Source: Raja brachyura | Lineage: Eukaryota | Assembly (NCBI GenBank): GCA_963514005.1 | Contig: OY740785.1 | Coordinates: 54,808,001-54,872,000 of the forward strand | Direction: 5' to 3' | DNA length: 64,000 nt | Shown here: one piece after another, positions 3,001-57,000 of the stretch | Layout: each line of letters starts with the position of its first letter | Position numbering within the stretch: position 1 is the stretch's first letter | Program-made: the position numbers

Positions 3001-6000
3001 TAGTTTAGAATGGTTATCTTGGTAGGCATGGATGACTTGGGCCGAAGAACCTGCTTCTGTGCTGTATGACTCTATGACTACGTATAACATTACGTTTTTA
3101 GTATATTGGGGATAGATTAAATTTTGGGCACAACAGCAAATACTGGTAGAAAGACACCCAGAAAGTTGGCAACTCGATGATTTGATAATTGCCAATTTTA
3201 TTAAAAGAAACTATTTTTAATTTGGGTAATTATTTCTGTACACCCTCAAAGGCCTCCAATAATGTTGACAATAGTTTTTTGTATCAAAGTATGTGCAGAT
3301 AAGCCCATAAAAACTTCAAAGTACCTTTGACTGATGTTAAAATATTGGCAGGGCTCCTGGTCCTGTAAGATGTGACCTTTCTGATCTTGTAATCATTGCT
3401 TAAAACACAGATTAATTCCTGTTTTTGTGGTTAGTTAAAAAATCCAGGAGAAATGTCTGCATTTTACACATTCTAAACGTTTTATTTTAAATACTCTGTT
3501 TCACTCCTGTAAGGTGTCAAAACTGAGCAGGTGAGACAAATGTTTAACACGTTGCAAGGAATCATCCGATGAAAATGAATGTCACCGTACCTTCATTTAC
3601 AAGAAGTGCATGACGTGCCTTTCTGCAAGACTGAGATGTAATCATTGTTTTTGGACTTCACAAACTGTACATCAACGCTGCTGACAGGTTAATGTCTTCC
3701 CCATGACTTCAGTGACTGCAAAATGATAGAAAGCAGCAGCAGGAGCAGAAATCTATGGGTTTTCCAACCTCCTAAATCTGTTTGAGAAATCAGCAAAAAT
3801 ATATACATGACAGTTGTGGAAGATATCTGGGGTTGCAGCACACAGTGTTCCTGAAAGCTACAAAATAAATGTACTCTCATGAATGCACTTGACACAACGA
3901 GGGACAAGTATTAAATTTATGCCATAAATGTTCAGACAAAAAAAAGTTGACTTGATAGATTTATATAAACTTGGTTTCAGAAATTACAGTGCCCCACAAG
4001 ATGATTTGGTTTCCAGTGAAACATATGGGAATTCTAAATCTCTGAAGAGATATTATGTATGTATCTGAGAAGGACGTCATGATTTTTCAGTTCTGAAGGA
4101 TCCAAAATGAAGGATCAGACGTCATCCACAATGACACTCATCTTACTATGTTGTACCATCCTTAGGCATGCTTTAAAAATGCCAACGCATGTGATGTTTT
4201 ATTTGGTAGAGGTGAGATTAAGATTGTTTTGGGTTTTCTGTGCTTGACCAACTGCAGGAACCACAAAAGCAAACATTTGAATGAATGAATTATACTTAAT
4301 TGTCATATGTACCATGAAATGTTTTGTTTTGCATACAACCTAGGCCGTACGCAAGTGTCGCCACGTGTCTGCCGCTGACATAGTTACCGCTTAACCTTGC
4401 CACTGTCGATATTATTTGTCGATTACACCACTTTGCACTGTGTAACTATGATTAAAATACAAAATGTAATTAACAGTATTAAGAATATAACAAAAATCTA
4501 GTAAACGCATTGAATGTATTTTGTGTATAAAACCTTTTTATGTACTGTAAACCCTTTCAATAACGGACCTCTAGTGGATTCCTGTTTTTGAGGACCGAGG
4601 CTCCCGTTACACCATCCTGCACCCCAACCCCCTTCGCCAGTTACCAATGCGCTGTTGGGAGCTTGCGGCTGTGGGAGTGGAGAGAGCGTGCAGCAAGAAG
4701 CCAGCATGAATACCAGATCCGTCCATGGCGCACCGCATGTGGGGCCAGGGGCTCTGTGCCTCCCTGGCCTGCAAATTATCGCTTGTTTAACCCCCCCTCC
4801 CTCCTCAATGCCACGTTTCTTCATTCCCAGCCTTGGGTTGAACTTTATCCCCCTCACTCAGTTATAGCGGACAATCGGCAATAACAGACACCATCCTTCC
4901 CCCTGGTCCGTTATTGCGAGGGTTTACTGTATTATGCAAAGGTATACAAAATACCTGGAAGTAGAGGCATTGCCATCCTCTACATTCTTCTTGCATGGAG
5001 AGCGTTGGGAAAAGGGAAGCTGACACTTGCAAAGATCATGTGAGTATGTCAGCAATGTTTATGCCAAATTGAAGAGAATTATTGAGAATGATGTTGAAGC
5101 ATCACATGGTGAGGAGCAACACATAACCACAAATTGACAGCATTAAACCTATTAATTTTCAGTGTGGAGTGCAATGATTGCATGAATATTTATAGCTTGA
5201 GTTGCTTTGAGTGCTGCATTGGGAAGGAGGTTAATAAATGTAATTTTATTGTATGCAGGAGTGTTTTGCCTGGAAAGTGGGTATTGCTTGCAAAGCCATC
5301 CTTAATGGCCATTGCTAATTGTCTTTGCTATGAGCTGCTGCTGTTCTGTAGCATGAGAACAAAGTGACCTAGGATTTTTCCCAGCAATTTTGTATTTCCA
5401 GGTCTGGATGCTGGAAGAGAACATGTAGCTGGTAGTATACTTGCTGACATTTTTCCAGCTGGAGGAGATTGTAGGTTAAGAGGTGCTACGAAGAAGCCTT
5501 GAAAAGTTGCTGCACTCCATCTTACTGACAGTTAAGAGAGTGAATGTTCCAGATAGTGGATGGAATGCCAGTAGACTGGGCTGCTTTGACCTGGATCTTG
5601 TTTAACTTGGTGTGAAGTTATACCTAGCCAAGCAAGTGGAGTCTATTCCATCAGTATTCTGACTTGTAGATGGTAAAAGGCTTTGGATGTTGGGAAGTGA
5701 GTAACTCACTGCAGACTACCCAGCATCTGACTTACTCTGAAGATAGACACAAAAATCTAGAGTACCTCTTGGGTCAGACAGCATCTCTGGAGAAAAGGAA
5801 TGGGTGATGTTTCAGTTTGTGACCCTTCTTCAGACTGACTTACTCTTGTAGTTATAGTTTTTTTTTAATGAGGCTGAGCCTGTTAAGTTTCTGTTATATG
5901 GTGACCCCAATGCTTGTGGGTAATATGGCAATCATAATATCATTCAATAATAATGATTCTCTCTAACTTGAGGACGATTAATGTCTCCCACTTAAATGTC

Positions 6001-54000: not shown

Positions 54001-57000
54001 AAATAAGAAATAACATTTTATATATAAAATTTTATATAGAAACTCCTCATAAACTAAAGATCAAACTTCGAACAGGTAAATTCTTGTTTAATCTTACTAT
54101 TTTGGTGCTCCGTGACTGATTCATACTCCACTCAATAAGTGGCTTTGCAAAAGCTGTCATCTCCATCCTTTTTCTGGTACTTGCACATGGGCATAAAACT
54201 GATTCCAGTCACAGACCATATCCTTAAATTCTACCCTTGATAAAATTGCATTAAATTAAACTTCCTCTCCTTATGATTTATGAACCTTGGAAGAACACTA
54301 CAATATTTAGGTGTGTGCGTTCTTTTGTTTACAATTCAAAGAGTGAAAAATAACCTAAAAATAAAATCATATCTGTGGTTGAGTTTTGTTGGACCATATC
54401 AAATCCAGCAAGCACCTAATTTCCATTGTGAGCCCTTACCCATTTCCATCTATTGTGTCTCAAACACAAGTAATCTATAAAATGGCTTTTTGTTTATATA
54501 AGAAAAACTGGGGACAATGTAACCTATCGTACAGGTATGCATTGCAGTTTGTAATCCTAAATCTAAAGAAGCACAGCCACATTTAACACTGAAGAAGTCT
54601 GAAGAATGGTTTCAACCTGAAACATCACCCATTCCTTCTCTCCAGAGATGCTGCCTGACCCGCTAGGTTACTCCAACATTTTGTGTCTGACCGACATTTA
54701 ACCCTACCTGCTCTAGAATATTCAAGATTATTTAAATCTATATTCCCATCACACGTTTGTAACAGCAACTTAAAATGTGAATAGATATGTGATTAAACCT
54801 TCAGAATAATTGTACAGAATTATTCTGAGAAAATGACCTGTTAAACATAGCAAGTCGTTGAGTACAAAAATACTTTAATCAGCAATAATCTGATGTGCAA
54901 CTGTAGTAACCTTTACATGTCGTACATGAGATAATTATACAGTTCAATTATTCAACTAAATGCGCTAGTTTGCCTAAATTCTACTTACTGACCTATATAC
55001 ACAGTGCATTGTACACTAAAATAGAAATCACATGCAGGTTTCTCTTCCATCTTTTCAATTCAAAGCTGAAGTGAATGAATCTTGATTAAATATAACTATC
55101 TATTGTTTGCCCTAAGGGTTTACTATCAATGAAATATTTTGACAGCCCACTAAGTTACAGAAATTGAATATTGTTAATATTTGTAATTATGTGATGTTCT
55201 TTTCCGGAGAGCAGGAAGTGACTCATAAATACTGACAATGGAAAAATGAAAATGAACAGCATAACTGGCCTGTAAACAAAATACAAAGATATTACAATCC
55301 CAGTGTTGGTGCATAATAACCCAAAGTCCTTAAGGGCCTGTCCCACTTAGGCGATTTTTCAGTGGACTGCTGGTGACTGTCAAGTGGCCTGCAGTCGCCT
55401 GGAAAACCGGCAACTGGAACGGCGACTGTCAGAGTGGAACACACACAAACACACACAAACACATCGCTTCCTTCACCAGCCCGTTATGCAGGTGGGGACA
55501 GGGCAAGTGGGGTGAGTGCTGTCTAATAAATTCACATGGTGCAAAGCCAAGGTGATGCAGACACACACTGTGATGAACAGGAAGGTTGGTGCTCTAATTA
55601 AGACGGCTAAAGCACAGTGCTTTAAAAGAGGGGGGAAGAGAGGGGGGAGAAGGAGTGGAGACAACTTTTATTAAGCCAGAGATACACGGCTGTGAAGCTC
55701 GGCAGACATTTACCATTACCAGATAGTAATCCTTGGTTGTGAAAACTACTGACCTTTCTTTTTCCCAATGAGCCAATGTAATTCACCAGCTACACCCACG
55801 AGAATCTCGGAGAACCTTCGACCTCCTGGTGACCCACCTACGGCACGAGAGTTCTCGCTACTCTCCATGGCAGCTTCATGTTGAACATGAACATGTTGAA
55901 ATATTTGCGCCGACCATAATGAGGCCACGACTAGTTCCCAGTATGCAGGAACTCGCGACCATGAAGGCGACTCCTCGGCAACTACCTGCGAACATGTGGC
56001 GAATGCATAGTCTCCTGCAGTCGCCTAAGTGGGACAGGCCCATTAGTGTAACCAATCACGTCCTGTAGTTCATAGTTGAGGTTAGTGTTGTGTAGTGGCT
56101 GCAAATAAGCTATTCTTGAACCTGGTGGTCACTGTTTTCAGACTTGTACATCATTTTCCTGATTGTTGGAGTAAATTGAGTTTGAGGCCAGGGTGTGTCT
56201 TAGTGATATTGGCTGTCTTTTTGAGACAGCGCCTCCACTACTACACTGCAGATAGTCAAACTGTGTGCAGGCTAACCTCTGCACACAGTTTGAATGACAC
56301 AAAACATATTTGGTTCTTCGGAGAGTGGATGACATTAGGCCCATCATTTATTGGCTAACATTAATGTAATAGTTTAAATTTGTCAAATTAGATCTTCTGT
56401 AATGCAAGCAATTCATTATATGATGCCTTTAAATATTATTGCCTACCTTGTGGACTATGATGGTACCATATACCGCAGGAGCCGCCAACACCTGCTTGCC
56501 GTGAAGGAACCACGTCCACCACCAGCCGGTCCTTATGCTCCACCACTGCAGTTCCAGCCGTTTGCTGCCGTGCCTTCCACCAGCTCCAGCATGTCCCGTA
56601 CCTCTCCACGACCTGCGGCTATGATTAACCACAAAAGTATCTCCCCTGCATGCTTCCCCCTGTCGGTCACCACGGGTGTCCCCTGCTGCTTTCTCTCTTC
56701 CGGGTTCACCACCACGTTTTAATCTTTCTGGCGAAGGGGGAGAGGGCTTGGTCCGTACGTGTTCGGGCCGGAATAGTAAACCGCCTGATAGAAATGGCGA
56801 ATATGTTTAAATTCTTATGACACGTGTGCTTACTATACTCTTTAAGGGGAAGGATGTAGATTGGTTTATGCATGAAAACCAATCATAGTAGAATAGCATC
56901 ACTAACCCCACCCTACTGTACGATTTATGTTGACACCCACTTCCTGTACTGGTCAGTCTTGGAAGCGGCCATTCTAGCAACTAACAACCTGCTGTACCGC

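What the first reader, a model, noticed from the sequence alone, without database searches (positions are those of the whole stretch)
5727..54702. Dispersed family of ~100-bp TSD-flanked 'ribozyme-only' mobile units
Seen: copies at 5739-5834 (-), 38327-38414 (+), 42968-43070 (-) and 54588-54693 (+) each begin a few nt before CTGAAGA and run about 60 nt past the core. Each has its own 9-14 bp duplication. The same module caps the GIY-YIG fragment at 7261-7345. More decayed copies lie near 29490, 32715 and 37700-37790. Variable-length TSDs indicate target-primed retrotransposition. No Pol III boxes or poly-A tail are visible, so these are not ordinary SINEs. Inference: an abundant retrozyme-like system mobilised in trans by Penelope RT/endonuclease. 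I cannot tell whether it is already catalogued.
Basis: partly seen in the sequence, partly recalled or inferred. Interest (0 to 1): 0.75.

Follow-up and report, generated by a model that had tools for sequence, protein, structure and literature searches.

The report
Solo hammerhead ends of Penelope retroelements
The ~100-bp repeats are real, duplication-flanked mini-insertions made from the hammerhead-bearing terminal repeat of a Penelope-like retrotransposon of a cartilaginous fish; this is a known kind of element, seen here with unusually sharp ends.

Summary
All four units sit at the stated coordinates. Each is flanked by a direct repeat of 12, 11, 12 (one mismatch; 8 exact) or 9 bp (null P(>=9 bp) = 0.7%).

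A profile search finds 15 copies in 64 kb.

The module is the 3'-terminal part of a Neptune-like Penelope-like element (PLE):
- It follows a decayed GIY-YIG endonuclease ORF at 7439-7975(-).
- 10 of 15 copies carry the 35-38-nt "tail" described as a PLE signature.
- The inverted pair has the tail at one end only.

The four units and both arms of the pair start within 3 nt of each other, so they are not random truncations.

Best reading: solo pseudo-LTR retrocopies, made by the PLE reverse transcriptase from its internal start site to the 5' end of the RNA.

"Ribozyme" rests on a motif match only. Rfam finds no hammerhead, helix I is about 2 bp, no covariation is seen, and the core decays faster than the rest. 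No tandem arrays are present, so these are not retrozymes in the strict sense.

Verdict: a new member of a known kind, of modest interest.

The parts
1468..1482 (.). Left copy of the 15-bp target-site duplication of the inverted pair. Its last 4 nt overlap the left arm (microhomology).
   Evidence: D1, 100% identical to 1713-1727
1479..1574 (-). Left arm of the head-to-head inverted pair: full 96-nt module, no tail, all CpGs and the strict min-hammerhead pattern intact.
   Evidence: I1, arms 96 nt, 100% complementary, 7 nt apart; (model 1-95)
1582..1712 (+). Right arm of the inverted pair: 96-nt module (1582-1677) plus 35-nt tail (1678-1712). The 7-nt spacer 1575-1581, together with the end of the left arm, repeats the module's first 12 nt.
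   Evidence: D2; model 1-129
1713..1727 (.). Right copy of the 15-bp target-site duplication.
5727..5846 (-). Solo unit 5739-5834 (96 nt, no tail), flanked by a 12-bp duplication (5727-5738 / 5835-5846). The first ~8 nt of the duplication resemble the start of the tail (junction microhomology or chance).
   Evidence: (p~0.02-0.1)
7237..8110 (-). 5'-truncated PLE fragment. It holds a decayed endonuclease ORF (7439-7975), ~95 nt of 3' UTR, the module 7258-7343 (10-nt internal deletion over the GAAAC..GTC box) and a diverged tail to ~7237.
   Evidence: (model 1-119)
29490..29596 (+). Old, diverged module + tail copy (55-66% identical to the other copies; CTGATGC form of the first box).
29852..29969 (+). 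Old, diverged module + tail copy, same strand, ~360 bp downstream of the previous one.
31892..32051 (-). Module + tail (31892-32022), with family homology continuing at least 28 nt upstream of the module. This is the 3' end of a longer copy.
   Evidence: model 1-130
32216..32320 (-). 5'-truncated copy + tail. Its homology begins within 1-2 nt of the predicted hammerhead cleavage site (after GTC). No duplication was found.
   Evidence: model from 32; model 29-130
32718..32819 (+). Old copy + tail on the opposite strand, ~400 bp from the previous one. It has an internal deletion after GAAAC.
35855..35922 (-). Decayed partial copy with tail.
   Evidence: (E 1.3e-5)
37663..37783 (-). Module + diverged tail. 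The first box has lost CTG. The pyrimidine-rich upstream sequence ends in TCAG, as in the other long copies (by eye).
   Evidence: model 3-128
38316..38425 (+). Solo unit 38327-38414(-38418), no tail, strict min-hammerhead pattern kept. Flanked by an 11-bp duplication, of which 4 nt may be the element's end.
42954..43082 (-). Solo unit 42966-43062, no tail, with 6-8 extra nt at its 5' junction (43063-43070). Flanked by a 12-bp duplication with 1 mismatch.
54579..54702 (+). Solo unit 54598-54693, no tail, preceded by an 8-10-nt repeat of its own first bases (54588-54597). Flanked by a 9-bp duplication.
63383..63960 (+). PLE fragment: RT end, linker and first half of the endonuclease. An internal deletion joins it to the last ~10 nt of the module and the tail (63921-63960).
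39101..39394 (-). Further endonuclease-coding fragment of the same PLE family with no module detected after it. Other such fragments lie at 41571-41746(+) and 58412-58555(+).
   Evidence: (blastn and tblastn)

Best explanation
The units are solo pseudo-LTRs of a Neptune-like Penelope-like element (PLE) of a cartilaginous fish.

Shown:
- The ~96-nt module is the 3'-terminal sequence of PLE copies that carry the GIY-YIG endonuclease.
- It inserts with 9-15-bp target duplications.
- It occurs with or without a 35-38-nt tail.
- It forms a head-to-head inverted pair with the tail at one end only.
- It has a fixed 5' end, 1-3 nt before CTGAAGA.

Inferred mechanism:
1. The PLE protein nicks the target.
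2. It starts reverse transcription at an internal site of the RNA. In the solo units this is the first of two neighbouring start sites. Each start site lies 15-20 nt after a CCAGCAT motif.
3. It copies back to the true 5' end of the RNA. This 5' end is most likely the element's transcription start, which sits in an initiator-like TCAGTCT.

Because that start lies only ~96 nt upstream of the reverse-transcription start site, the shortest complete cDNA is the 96-nt unit. Extra bases, short re-copied stretches and the snap-back inverted pair at the 5' junctions are what a polymerase running off an RNA end would leave.

The hammerhead motif rides along as part of the pLTR. Nothing here shows that it cleaves or that cleavage is needed.
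For: PLE link:
- The module lies 95 nt after an ORF whose closest relatives are skate and shark proteins (72% and 69% identity; E 4e-61).
- These relatives share CX4CxxC and the GIY...CxxC...YIG pattern.
- Pfam GIY-YIG matches 5 of 17 aligned members at E<=0.01.
- RVT_1 lies upstream of the endonuclease part in the shark relative P0009 (E 0.0077, below the cut-off).
- A second PLE fragment ends in the tail.

Tail:
- 10 of 15 copies carry it.
- It matches the 30-40-bp PLE tail and the two adjacent internal RT start sites described in PMC8557442 and PMC11167929.

Inverted pair:
- Arms are 100% identical.
- The junction is palindromic.
- The tail is at one end only.
- The duplication is 15 bp.
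- This is the arrangement drawn for PLEs in PMC3846280 and PMC8557442.

Duplications: 15, 12, 11, 8 (12 with 1 mismatch) and 9 bp against a null P(>=8) of 2.4% each.

Fixed 5' end: 5 of 14 events lie within 3 nt.

Against a recombination origin: 0 of 4 solo units have the tail, against 4 of 4 copies attached to or extended into PLE sequence (Fisher p = 0.029) and 9 of 9 other non-pair copies (p = 0.0014).

Initiator-like motif: TCAGTCT precedes the module in 3 of 3 younger long copies (by eye). An Inr-like motif in pLTRs is reported in PMC3846280.
Against: - No full-length PLE is in the window. That the unit's 5' end equals the element's 5' end and transcription start is therefore inferred, not seen.
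- n is small: 4 solo units and 1 pair.
- The model does not itself explain why all solo units use the first start site and all longer copies the second.
- No empty-site paralogue was found in the window to prove insertion.
- The units are 80-88% identical to each other and a tree is unresolved. It cannot be told whether they came from autonomous masters or from each other.
- In vitro work on an anole PLE found RT start sites not homologous to the target (PMC11167929). Here 2-3 junctions show 4-8 nt of possible microhomology.
Confidence: 0.6

Rival explanations
1. A self-propagating, SINE-like non-autonomous lineage. Solo units would themselves be transcribed from an internal promoter that sets the 5' end. 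PLE proteins would copy them in trans, so daughters come from solo units rather than from autonomous PLEs.
For: - Lack of a tail would be heritable in such a lineage. This would explain 0 of 4 tails in solo units against 9 of 9 in other copies.
- All 4 solo units share CAT where 5 tail-bearing events have TAT (by eye).
- pLTR sequences alone suffice for mobilisation in trans in rotifer PLEs (PMC3846280).
- Non-LTR retrozymes are proposed to be non-autonomous PLE derivatives (preprint 10.64898/2026.07.22.740005).
Against: - No promoter is shown and no Pol III boxes are present.
- The tree gives no separate clade. The PLE-attached copy 7258-7343 is as close to the solo units (75-87%) as they are to each other (80-88%).
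- The solo units show plain CpG decay.
- The sample is only 4 units.
Confidence: 0.25
2. Solo pLTRs left by unequal recombination between the two direct pLTRs of once complete PLE insertions, as solo LTRs arise. The original target duplication would be kept.
For: - This would also give a duplication-flanked unit with the element's true 5' end.
- Solo pLTRs attributed to recombination or deletion are mentioned in PMC3846280.
Against: - A crossover inside the 96-bp repeat keeps the downstream tail of the 3' copy. Yet 0 of 4 solo units have a tail, while 4 of 4 PLE-attached or 5'-extended 3' ends do (p = 0.029).
- No full-length PLE is in the window, and PLE insertions are mostly 5'-truncated (PMC8557442, PMC8969392). 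Complete precursors should therefore be the minority.
- 96 bp is a short substrate for recombination.
Confidence: 0.1
3. Ordinary randomly 5'-truncated PLE copies that happen to be short, or retrozymes proper spreading through circular RNA and rolling-circle copying.
For: - PLEs are heavily 5'-truncated on insertion (PMC8557442).
- One copy (32216-32320) is truncated inside the module.
- Two 5' junctions repeat 8-12 nt of the unit's start.
Against: - The shared 5' end in 5 of 14 events has a probability of about 3e-7 under uniform truncation.
- No tandem array of the module was found. TRF reports 4 rows, none of them the module.
- No permuted junction of 3' end to 5' end is present. The repeated bases at the 5' junctions are 5'-end sequence, not 3'-end sequence.
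Confidence: 0.04

Closest known systems
Pseudo-LTRs (pLTRs) of endonuclease-containing Penelope-like elements, including solo and inverted pLTRs with the optional 30-40-bp tail (Arkhipova et al. 2013, PMC3846280; Craig et al. 2021, PMC8557442; Frangieh et al. 2024, PMC11167929; passages and main text read)
   Same: - Terminal repeat next to an RT/GIY-YIG ORF.
- Hammerhead motif inside it.
- Head-to-head inverted pair with a palindromic junction.
- Tail at one end only.
- Target duplications of variable length (8-10 bp there, 9-15 bp here).
- Two neighbouring 3' ends that fit two internal RT start sites.
   Different: - The repeat is very short: 96 nt, or ~131 with the tail, against 181-218 bp in the rotifer families.
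- In this window, duplication-flanked solo copies (4) are as common as copies attached to or extended into PLE sequence (4).
- All solo copies lack the tail.
- No full-length element is in the window to show the 5' pLTR.
Minimal hammerhead ribozymes of metazoan PLEs (Cervera & De la Pena 2014, PMC4209133; main text read, supplements closed)
   Same: - CUGANGA box.
[quoted passage not shown]
- G10.1-C11.1 pair.
- 4-bp helix II.
- GAA.
- No helix III, but a palindromic ACGU that would pair between two copies.
[quoted passage not shown]
   Different: - Helix I is only ~2 bp here; the paper's consensus has 4-5 bp, and 2 bp in D. virilis.
- Only 3 of 13 copies pass a strict pattern.
- Cleavage is untested.
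Non-LTR retrozymes of animals (Cervera & De la Pena 2020, PMC7229834, passages read; Li, Clavereau & Pollet 2026 preprint 10.64898/2026.07.22.740005, Results and Discussion read)
   Same: - Short non-coding hammerhead-bearing repeats.
- Thought to be mobilised by PLEs and derived from pLTRs.
- "Solo" monomers dispersed along chromosomes.
- Duplications longer than 4 bp.
   Different: - Retrozymes are defined by tandem arrays (dimers to multimers, ~170-400-bp monomers) with canonical type I hammerheads and circular RNAs.
- Here there is no tandem array, the motif is minimal, and the unit's ends are an RNA 5' end and an RT start site rather than hammerhead cleavage sites.
SINEs and ribozyme-processed LINE 5' ends (HDV-like ribozymes of R2 and other non-LTR elements; named in the discussion of PMC4209133, otherwise recalled)
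   Same: - Short non-autonomous retrocopies that depend on another element's RT.
- A ribozyme at the 5' edge of a retroelement RNA.
   Different: - No Pol III head, no LINE tail, no poly-A.
- A hammerhead cuts ~30 nt inside the unit, not at its 5' edge, so it cannot create the observed 5' end.
- Rfam finds no HDV-like or other ribozyme.

Membership tests
Penelope-like element (3' end / pLTR) | [quoted passage not shown] | tested here: met
   - The module lies 95 nt after ORF 7439-7975(-).
- Relatives share CX4CxxC and GIY..CxxC..YIG.
- Pfam GIY-YIG matches 5 of 17 members at E<=0.01. In the 4 relatives scanned singly it scores 16.9-21.7 bits in 3, all below the 22.6 cut-off.
- There is no Pfam hit for the window's own decayed copy.
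- A PDB profile search found nothing relevant.
- The RT end is seen only at 63383-63691.
Penelope-like element (3' end / pLTR) | Optional 30-40-bp tail at the 3' end; in inverted pairs at one end only | tested here: met
   10 of 15 copies carry a 35-38-nt extension. In the pair 1483-1712 only the right arm has it.
Penelope-like element (3' end / pLTR) | Target-site duplications of variable length | tested here: met
   15, 12, 11, 12 (1 mismatch) and 9 bp in 5 of 5 delimited events. None was found for the other 7 copies tested, whose 5' limits are uncertain.
Penelope-like element (3' end / pLTR) | Direct repeat of the same sequence at the 5' end of a full-length copy (what makes it a pLTR) | not testable with these tools
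   No full-length PLE is in the window, and no eukaryotic genome collection is on hand.
Hammerhead ribozyme (minimal PLE type) | Core boxes CUGANGA and GAAA, then U-H at the cleavage site | tested here: met
   Both boxes are present in 7 of 13 copies (read by eye). The strict pattern with G10.1/C11.1 is met in 3 of 13, against 0.02 expected by chance.
Hammerhead ribozyme (minimal PLE type) | Helix II with G10.1-C11.1, supported by covariation | tested here: inconclusive
   A 4-bp helix is present in intact copies. 75% of cells are paired and 1 pair has a double change. Whole-structure covariation is 0.143 against 0.126 in shuffles (114 of 500 reach it).
Hammerhead ribozyme (minimal PLE type) | Helix I of 4-6 bp | tested here: not met
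   Only U-A and G-C can pair next to the core, in solo and in long copies alike (by eye). A 2-bp helix I is reported for D. virilis PLEs (PMC4209133).
Hammerhead ribozyme (minimal PLE type) | Match to a curated hammerhead covariance model | tested here: not met
   No hammerhead family was found at gathering score or at E<=10, in the whole window or in 1570-1720 alone. This is expected, since helix III is missing.
Hammerhead ribozyme (minimal PLE type) | Self-cleavage, alone or as a dimer | not testable with these tools
   Folding prefers a hairpin that buries CUGAAGA. One copy starts at the predicted cleavage site (32320), n = 1.
Non-LTR retrozyme | Tandem array of hammerhead-bearing monomers | tested here: not met
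   TRF reports 4 rows, none of them the module. The nearest same-strand copies are 320-360 bp apart with unrelated sequence between them.
Non-LTR retrozyme | Circular RNA of monomer size | not testable with these tools
   No RNA data are available.
SINE | Pol III head (tRNA, 5S or 7SL; A and B boxes) and a LINE-type or A-rich tail | tested here: not met
   - 0 tRNA-like genes.
- The best A or B box match has 3 mismatches in 5 of 5 units.
- Units end in ...CTATCTTC or in the tail, and the longest A run is 3 nt.

The most novel reading that the evidence does not exclude
The ~96-nt unit is the smallest self-sustaining non-autonomous retroelement of the PLE world. It would consist only of a transcription start, a minimal hammerhead and the RT recognition and start site. 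It would breed true as a tail-less lineage that now outnumbers its autonomous parent. The hammerhead would occasionally trim the template, as in the copy that begins at the cleavage site.
Probability: 0.2. Interest if true: 0.6.

Novelty: new member of a known kind. Interest (0 to 1): 0.3.

Why it matters
PLE transposition is poorly understood. The only biochemical study reports reverse transcription that starts at two internal sites and explains the "tail" (PMC11167929).

These fish copies are natural insertion products that show both 3' ends. They also show a sharply fixed 5' end and a link between the two: short units lack the tail and long copies have it. If this holds genome-wide, it would mark the RNA 5' end and the RT start sites in vivo. 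It would also explain why single hammerhead motifs are so numerous in vertebrate genomes.

For annotation, the practical point is that these ~100-bp repeats should be filed as PLE pLTR fragments. They are not a new SINE or ribozyme gene.

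Tried and rejected
- **Rfam search** for hammerhead or any other ribozyme: nothing. The sub-threshold mir-9201 and mir-640 hits at 1527-1629 are only the hairpin of the inverted pair.
- **Covariation** for the hammerhead-compatible fold and for the alternative 5' hairpin: no signal above shuffles with 11 copies.
- **Thermodynamic folding**: 1 of 6 copies has z < -2. Dimer cofolding does not give the double-hammerhead.
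- **Tail similarity downstream of the four solo units**: only 5739 shows a weak extension (p ~0.02-0.1), and it lies inside its duplication.
- **Empty-site paralogues** of the insertion flanks within the window: none usable.
- **Tree of the modules**: unresolved; 0 of 9 inner branches are well supported.
- **Protein search among longer proteins**: no hit.
- **PDB profile search**: one irrelevant hit, E 0.24.
- **Pfam on the window's own endonuclease ORF**: no family.
- **Literature search for a 20-nt stretch of the module**: 0 papers.
- **Spliced-leader or intron-end origin of the 5' boundary**: considered because CAG precedes the module in long copies. Rejected because the bases upstream of the solo units share nothing.
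- **Hammerhead cleavage as the source of the 5' boundary**: rejected because the cleavage site lies ~30 nt inside the unit.

Full report
**Setting.** The window is eukaryotic and full of retroelements.
- It holds a U2 snRNA, LINE-type APE and RT ORFs, an integrase, and several RT fragments.
- It has one N run at 58154-58353, which I left alone.
- The proteins closest to the endonuclease ORF discussed below come from skates and a bamboo shark (Leucoraja erinacea 72%, Rhinoraja longicauda 69%, Chiloscyllium punctatum 55% identity). The window therefore most likely comes from a cartilaginous fish.
- It is not human.

**The observation.** CTGAAGA is over-represented: 25 against 10.75 +/- 3.16 expected, and 0 of 100 shuffles reach 25.
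- A profile built from seven copies finds 13 copies at E < 0.001. Four further rows at E 0.9-8.5 were dropped as noise.
- A profile that includes the downstream extension finds 15 at E <= 1.4e-5. Two rows at E ~0.9 were dropped.
- That is one copy per ~4 kb.

**Target duplications.** I searched 25 nt of flank on each side for the longest exact direct repeat.

| Insertion | Longest flanking repeat |
|---|---|
| Solo unit 5739-5834(-) | 12 bp |
| Solo unit 38327-38414(+) | 11 bp |
| Solo unit 42966-43070(-) | 8 bp exact (12 bp with one mismatch) |
| Solo unit 54588-54693(+) | 9 bp |
| Inverted pair 1483-1712 | 15 bp |

- At about 3000 random positions of the same span, repeats of >=9 bp occur in 0.7% and >=8 bp in 2.4%. 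All five together reaching >=8 bp has a probability of about 9e-9.
- The other seven copies tested gave only 3-5 bp. Their 5' limits are uncertain or they continue upstream, so this says little.
- In 38327 the first 4 nt of the repeat may be the element's own end.
- In the left arm of the pair, 4 nt are shared between element and repeat.
- In 5739 the first ~8 nt of the repeat resemble the start of the tail (p ~0.02-0.1).
- These junctions may be microhomologies.

**Two 3' ends.** Five copies end at ...CTATCTTC or its variants. These are the four solo units and the left arm of the pair. The other ten continue for 35-38 nt through a conserved stretch, ending near ...TTACACA, after which they diverge from each other.
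- Each end lies 15-20 nt after a CCAGCAT motif. One motif is in the module and one in the extension (read).
- This extension is what the PLE literature calls the "tail". It is a 30-40-bp optional extension, often at only one end of an insertion (PMC8557442; 31 bp in PMC3846280).
- In an anole PLE the tail corresponds to the stretch between two adjacent internal reverse-transcription start sites (PMC11167929, main text read).

**The inverted pair.**
- Arms 1479-1574 and 1582-1677 are 96 nt long, 100% complementary and 7 nt apart.
- The junction is itself a 12-nt palindrome.
- The spacer, together with the end of the left arm, repeats the first 12 nt of the module.
- The tail is present on the right arm only.
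- A perfect 15-bp duplication flanks the whole.
- This is the head-to-head pLTR arrangement with a palindromic junction and a one-sided tail described for PLEs. It was interpreted there as self-priming (PMC3846280).
- All CpGs are intact, so it is the youngest copy in the window.

**Link to a Penelope-like element.**
- The module at 7258-7343(-) lies 95 nt downstream of ORF 7439-7975(-).
- That ORF has 27 relatives at E <= 1e-3.
- Sixteen of them, aligned with it, share PGTFPCxRxxCxTCP and FTCTSxNVVYCIxCSxCxxLYIGET. This gives a CX4CxxC linker and two cysteines between GIY and YIG. According to PMC8557442 these mark PLE endonucleases of the Neptune/Nematis type; the linker is absent in Penelope/Poseidon.
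- Pfam GIY-YIG matches 5 of 17 aligned members at E <= 0.01. In the four scanned singly it reaches 16.9-21.7 bits in 3, below the 22.6 cut-off.
- The window's own copy gives no Pfam hit. It carries Cys-to-Tyr and Gly/Glu changes in these motifs, so it is a pseudogene.
- A second fragment at 63383-63960(+) matches the RT end, linker and first half of the endonuclease of the shark relative. It then jumps by internal deletion to the last ~10 nt of the module and the tail.
- Three more endonuclease fragments lie at 39101-39394(-), 41571-41746(+) and 58412-58555(+).
- No PLE RT core and no full-length element is in the window.

**5' ends.** The four solo units and both arms of the pair begin at the T of TCTGAAGA or 1-2 nt before it.
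- Two junctions carry extra bases. These are 6-8 unrelated nt in 42966-43070, and an 8-10-nt repeat of the unit's own start in 54588-54693.
- Of the other copies:
  - four continue upstream (7258, 31892, 37663 and, by eye, 32718);
  - one starts at model position 29-32;
  - two are internally deleted or decayed (63921, 35855);
  - two old ones are undetermined (29490, 29852).
- Under uniform truncation over only the 860 nt seen in the longest fragment, five of 14 events falling in one 3-nt window has a probability of ~1e-9. Allowing any window, it is ~3e-7.

**Is it a ribozyme?** In the intact arms the sequence reads CUGAAGA, one extra A, a 4-bp helix II closed by G-C, GAA, then ACGUC.
- A strict pattern matches 3 copies against 0.02 expected by chance. 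Both boxes survive in 7 of 13 copies, and the ACGT palindrome in 3 of 13 (by eye).
- Against the ribozyme reading:
  - Rfam finds no hammerhead at any threshold.
  - Helix I can form only ~2 bp.
  - Predicted folds bury CUGAAGA in a hairpin with a downstream CCUUCUC..AGA.
  - Covariation does not exceed shuffles.
  - The hammerhead segment is less conserved (0.70; 0.75 without CpG columns) than positions 31-96 (0.78; 0.79).
- The differences among copies are largely CpG decay. Dead copies under no selection would look like this.
- The best conserved stretch is AGATGCTGCC...CTCCAGCA, next to the reverse-transcription start. The hammerhead label is therefore a motif-level match only.

**How it most likely works.**
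- Shown:
  - PLE-type insertion products.
  - Two alternative 3' ends.
  - A fixed 5' end.
  - 5' junctions with extra, re-copied or snapped-back sequence.
- Inferred:
  1. The PLE protein nicks the target and starts cDNA synthesis at an internal site of the RNA, as in PMC11167929.
  2. It runs to the physical 5' end of the RNA.
  3. For a retroelement copied this way, the 5' end of complete copies is the transcription start.
- The long copies have TCAGTCT across the boundary in 3 of 3 cases. This fits the initiator consensus as I recall it. An Inr-like motif in pLTRs is noted in PMC3846280.
- Because the start lies ~96 nt upstream of the first RT start site, the shortest complete cDNA is the solo unit.
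- Unexplained: every solo unit uses the first start site and every longer copy uses the second (0 of 4 against 9 of 9, p = 0.0014).

**Rivals.**
- *Self-propagating tail-less lineage.* This would explain the tail association, because the tail is not in a solo template. It also fits a CAT/TAT difference. But no promoter is shown and the tree is unresolved. I give it 0.25.
- *Recombination between two direct pLTRs.* This should keep the tail of the 3' copy, yet no solo unit has one, while 4 of 4 PLE-attached or extended ends do (p = 0.029). I give it 0.1.
- *Random truncation, or retrozymes in the strict sense.* These are disfavoured by the endpoint statistics and by the absence of tandem or permuted copies.

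**A lead.** Copy 32216-32320(-) begins within 1-2 nt of the predicted cleavage site and carries the tail. This is what a cDNA of a self-cleaved RNA would look like. It has no duplication and n = 1, so a deletion breakpoint is as likely.

**Novelty.** Several parts of this picture are already in print:
- Dispersed single minimal hammerheads "probably related to truncated PLEs" (PMC4209133).
- Solo and inverted pLTRs with tails and 8-10-bp duplications, and mobilisation by pLTRs alone (PMC3846280).
- Internal RT start sites (PMC11167929).
- Retrozymes, including solo monomers, as non-autonomous PLE derivatives (PMC7229834 passages; preprint 10.64898/2026.07.22.740005, Results and Discussion).

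What may be new is the very short pLTR, the abundance of duplication-flanked solo copies, and their uniform lack of the tail. I found no paper containing a 20-nt stretch of the module (0 papers). Three searches on PLE hammerheads, PLE non-autonomous elements and shark/skate Penelope elements listed nothing on this family.

**What stayed unchecked.**
- Dfam and Repbase.
- Any eukaryotic genome collection.
- The papers' supplementary files, which are closed. The min-HHR alignments of PMC4209133 and the retrozyme family tables of the 2026 preprint, which sampled one chondrichthyan, may already hold this family.

Noticed in passing
window 52787-52965 (+): U2 spliceosomal snRNA gene or pseudogene: 87.7 bits against a gathering score of 46, full-length match to the model. 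The 3' stem-loops are poorly matched.
   Followed up: no
window 1527-1629: Sub-threshold Rfam hits to mir-9201 (40 bits, cut-off 95.5) and mir-640 (37.5 bits, cut-off 96). They are caused by the perfect 96-nt hairpin of the inverted PLE pair and are not microRNA genes.
   Followed up: yes
window 50320-50752: Tandem repeat of a 161-bp unit, 2.7 copies, 85% matches. It is unrelated to the hammerhead module.
   Followed up: no
window 8118-11090 (+): LINE-type element with APE endonuclease (Exo_endo_phos, E 1.9e-10) and RT (RVT_1, E 6.7e-34). It abuts the 5' break of the PLE fragment at ~8110.
   Followed up: no
window 43676-46678 (-) and 25827-26909 (-): A long retroelement ORF with a weak RVT_1 hit (E 2.5e-5) and an RNase H-like motif by eye, and a separate integrase ORF (Integrase_H2C2 and rve). 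These belong to other retroelement classes. The solo unit 42966-43070 lies ~600 bp downstream of the first but has its own duplication.
   Followed up: partly
window 58387-58797 (-), next to the N run 58154-58353: ORF fragment with a GDSL-like lipase/acylhydrolase match (Lipase_GDSL_2, E 2.7e-13), possibly an exon of a host gene or part of a LINE. A PLE endonuclease fragment lies on the other strand at 58412-58555.
   Followed up: no
window 31890-32820 and 29490-29970: Clusters of module copies. The first has two on the minus strand 320 bp apart plus one on the plus strand ~400 bp away. The second has two old copies on the plus strand 360 bp apart. They may be remains of complex partial-tandem or inverted PLE insertions. 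The sequence between the copies could not be assigned.
   Followed up: partly
window 1468-1482 and 5835-5846: Two of the five target duplications resemble the start of the PLE tail: an 8-nt exact AACCAGCA match in the first, and 9 of 12 positions in the second. This hints at a target preference for tail-like sequence or at priming by microhomology. The other three show no such likeness.
   Followed up: partly
window 24961-25164 and 29246-29460: A 215-bp repeat, 87% identical, between the region upstream of the old copy at 29490 and a site near 25000. It is another dispersed repeat family.
   Followed up: no
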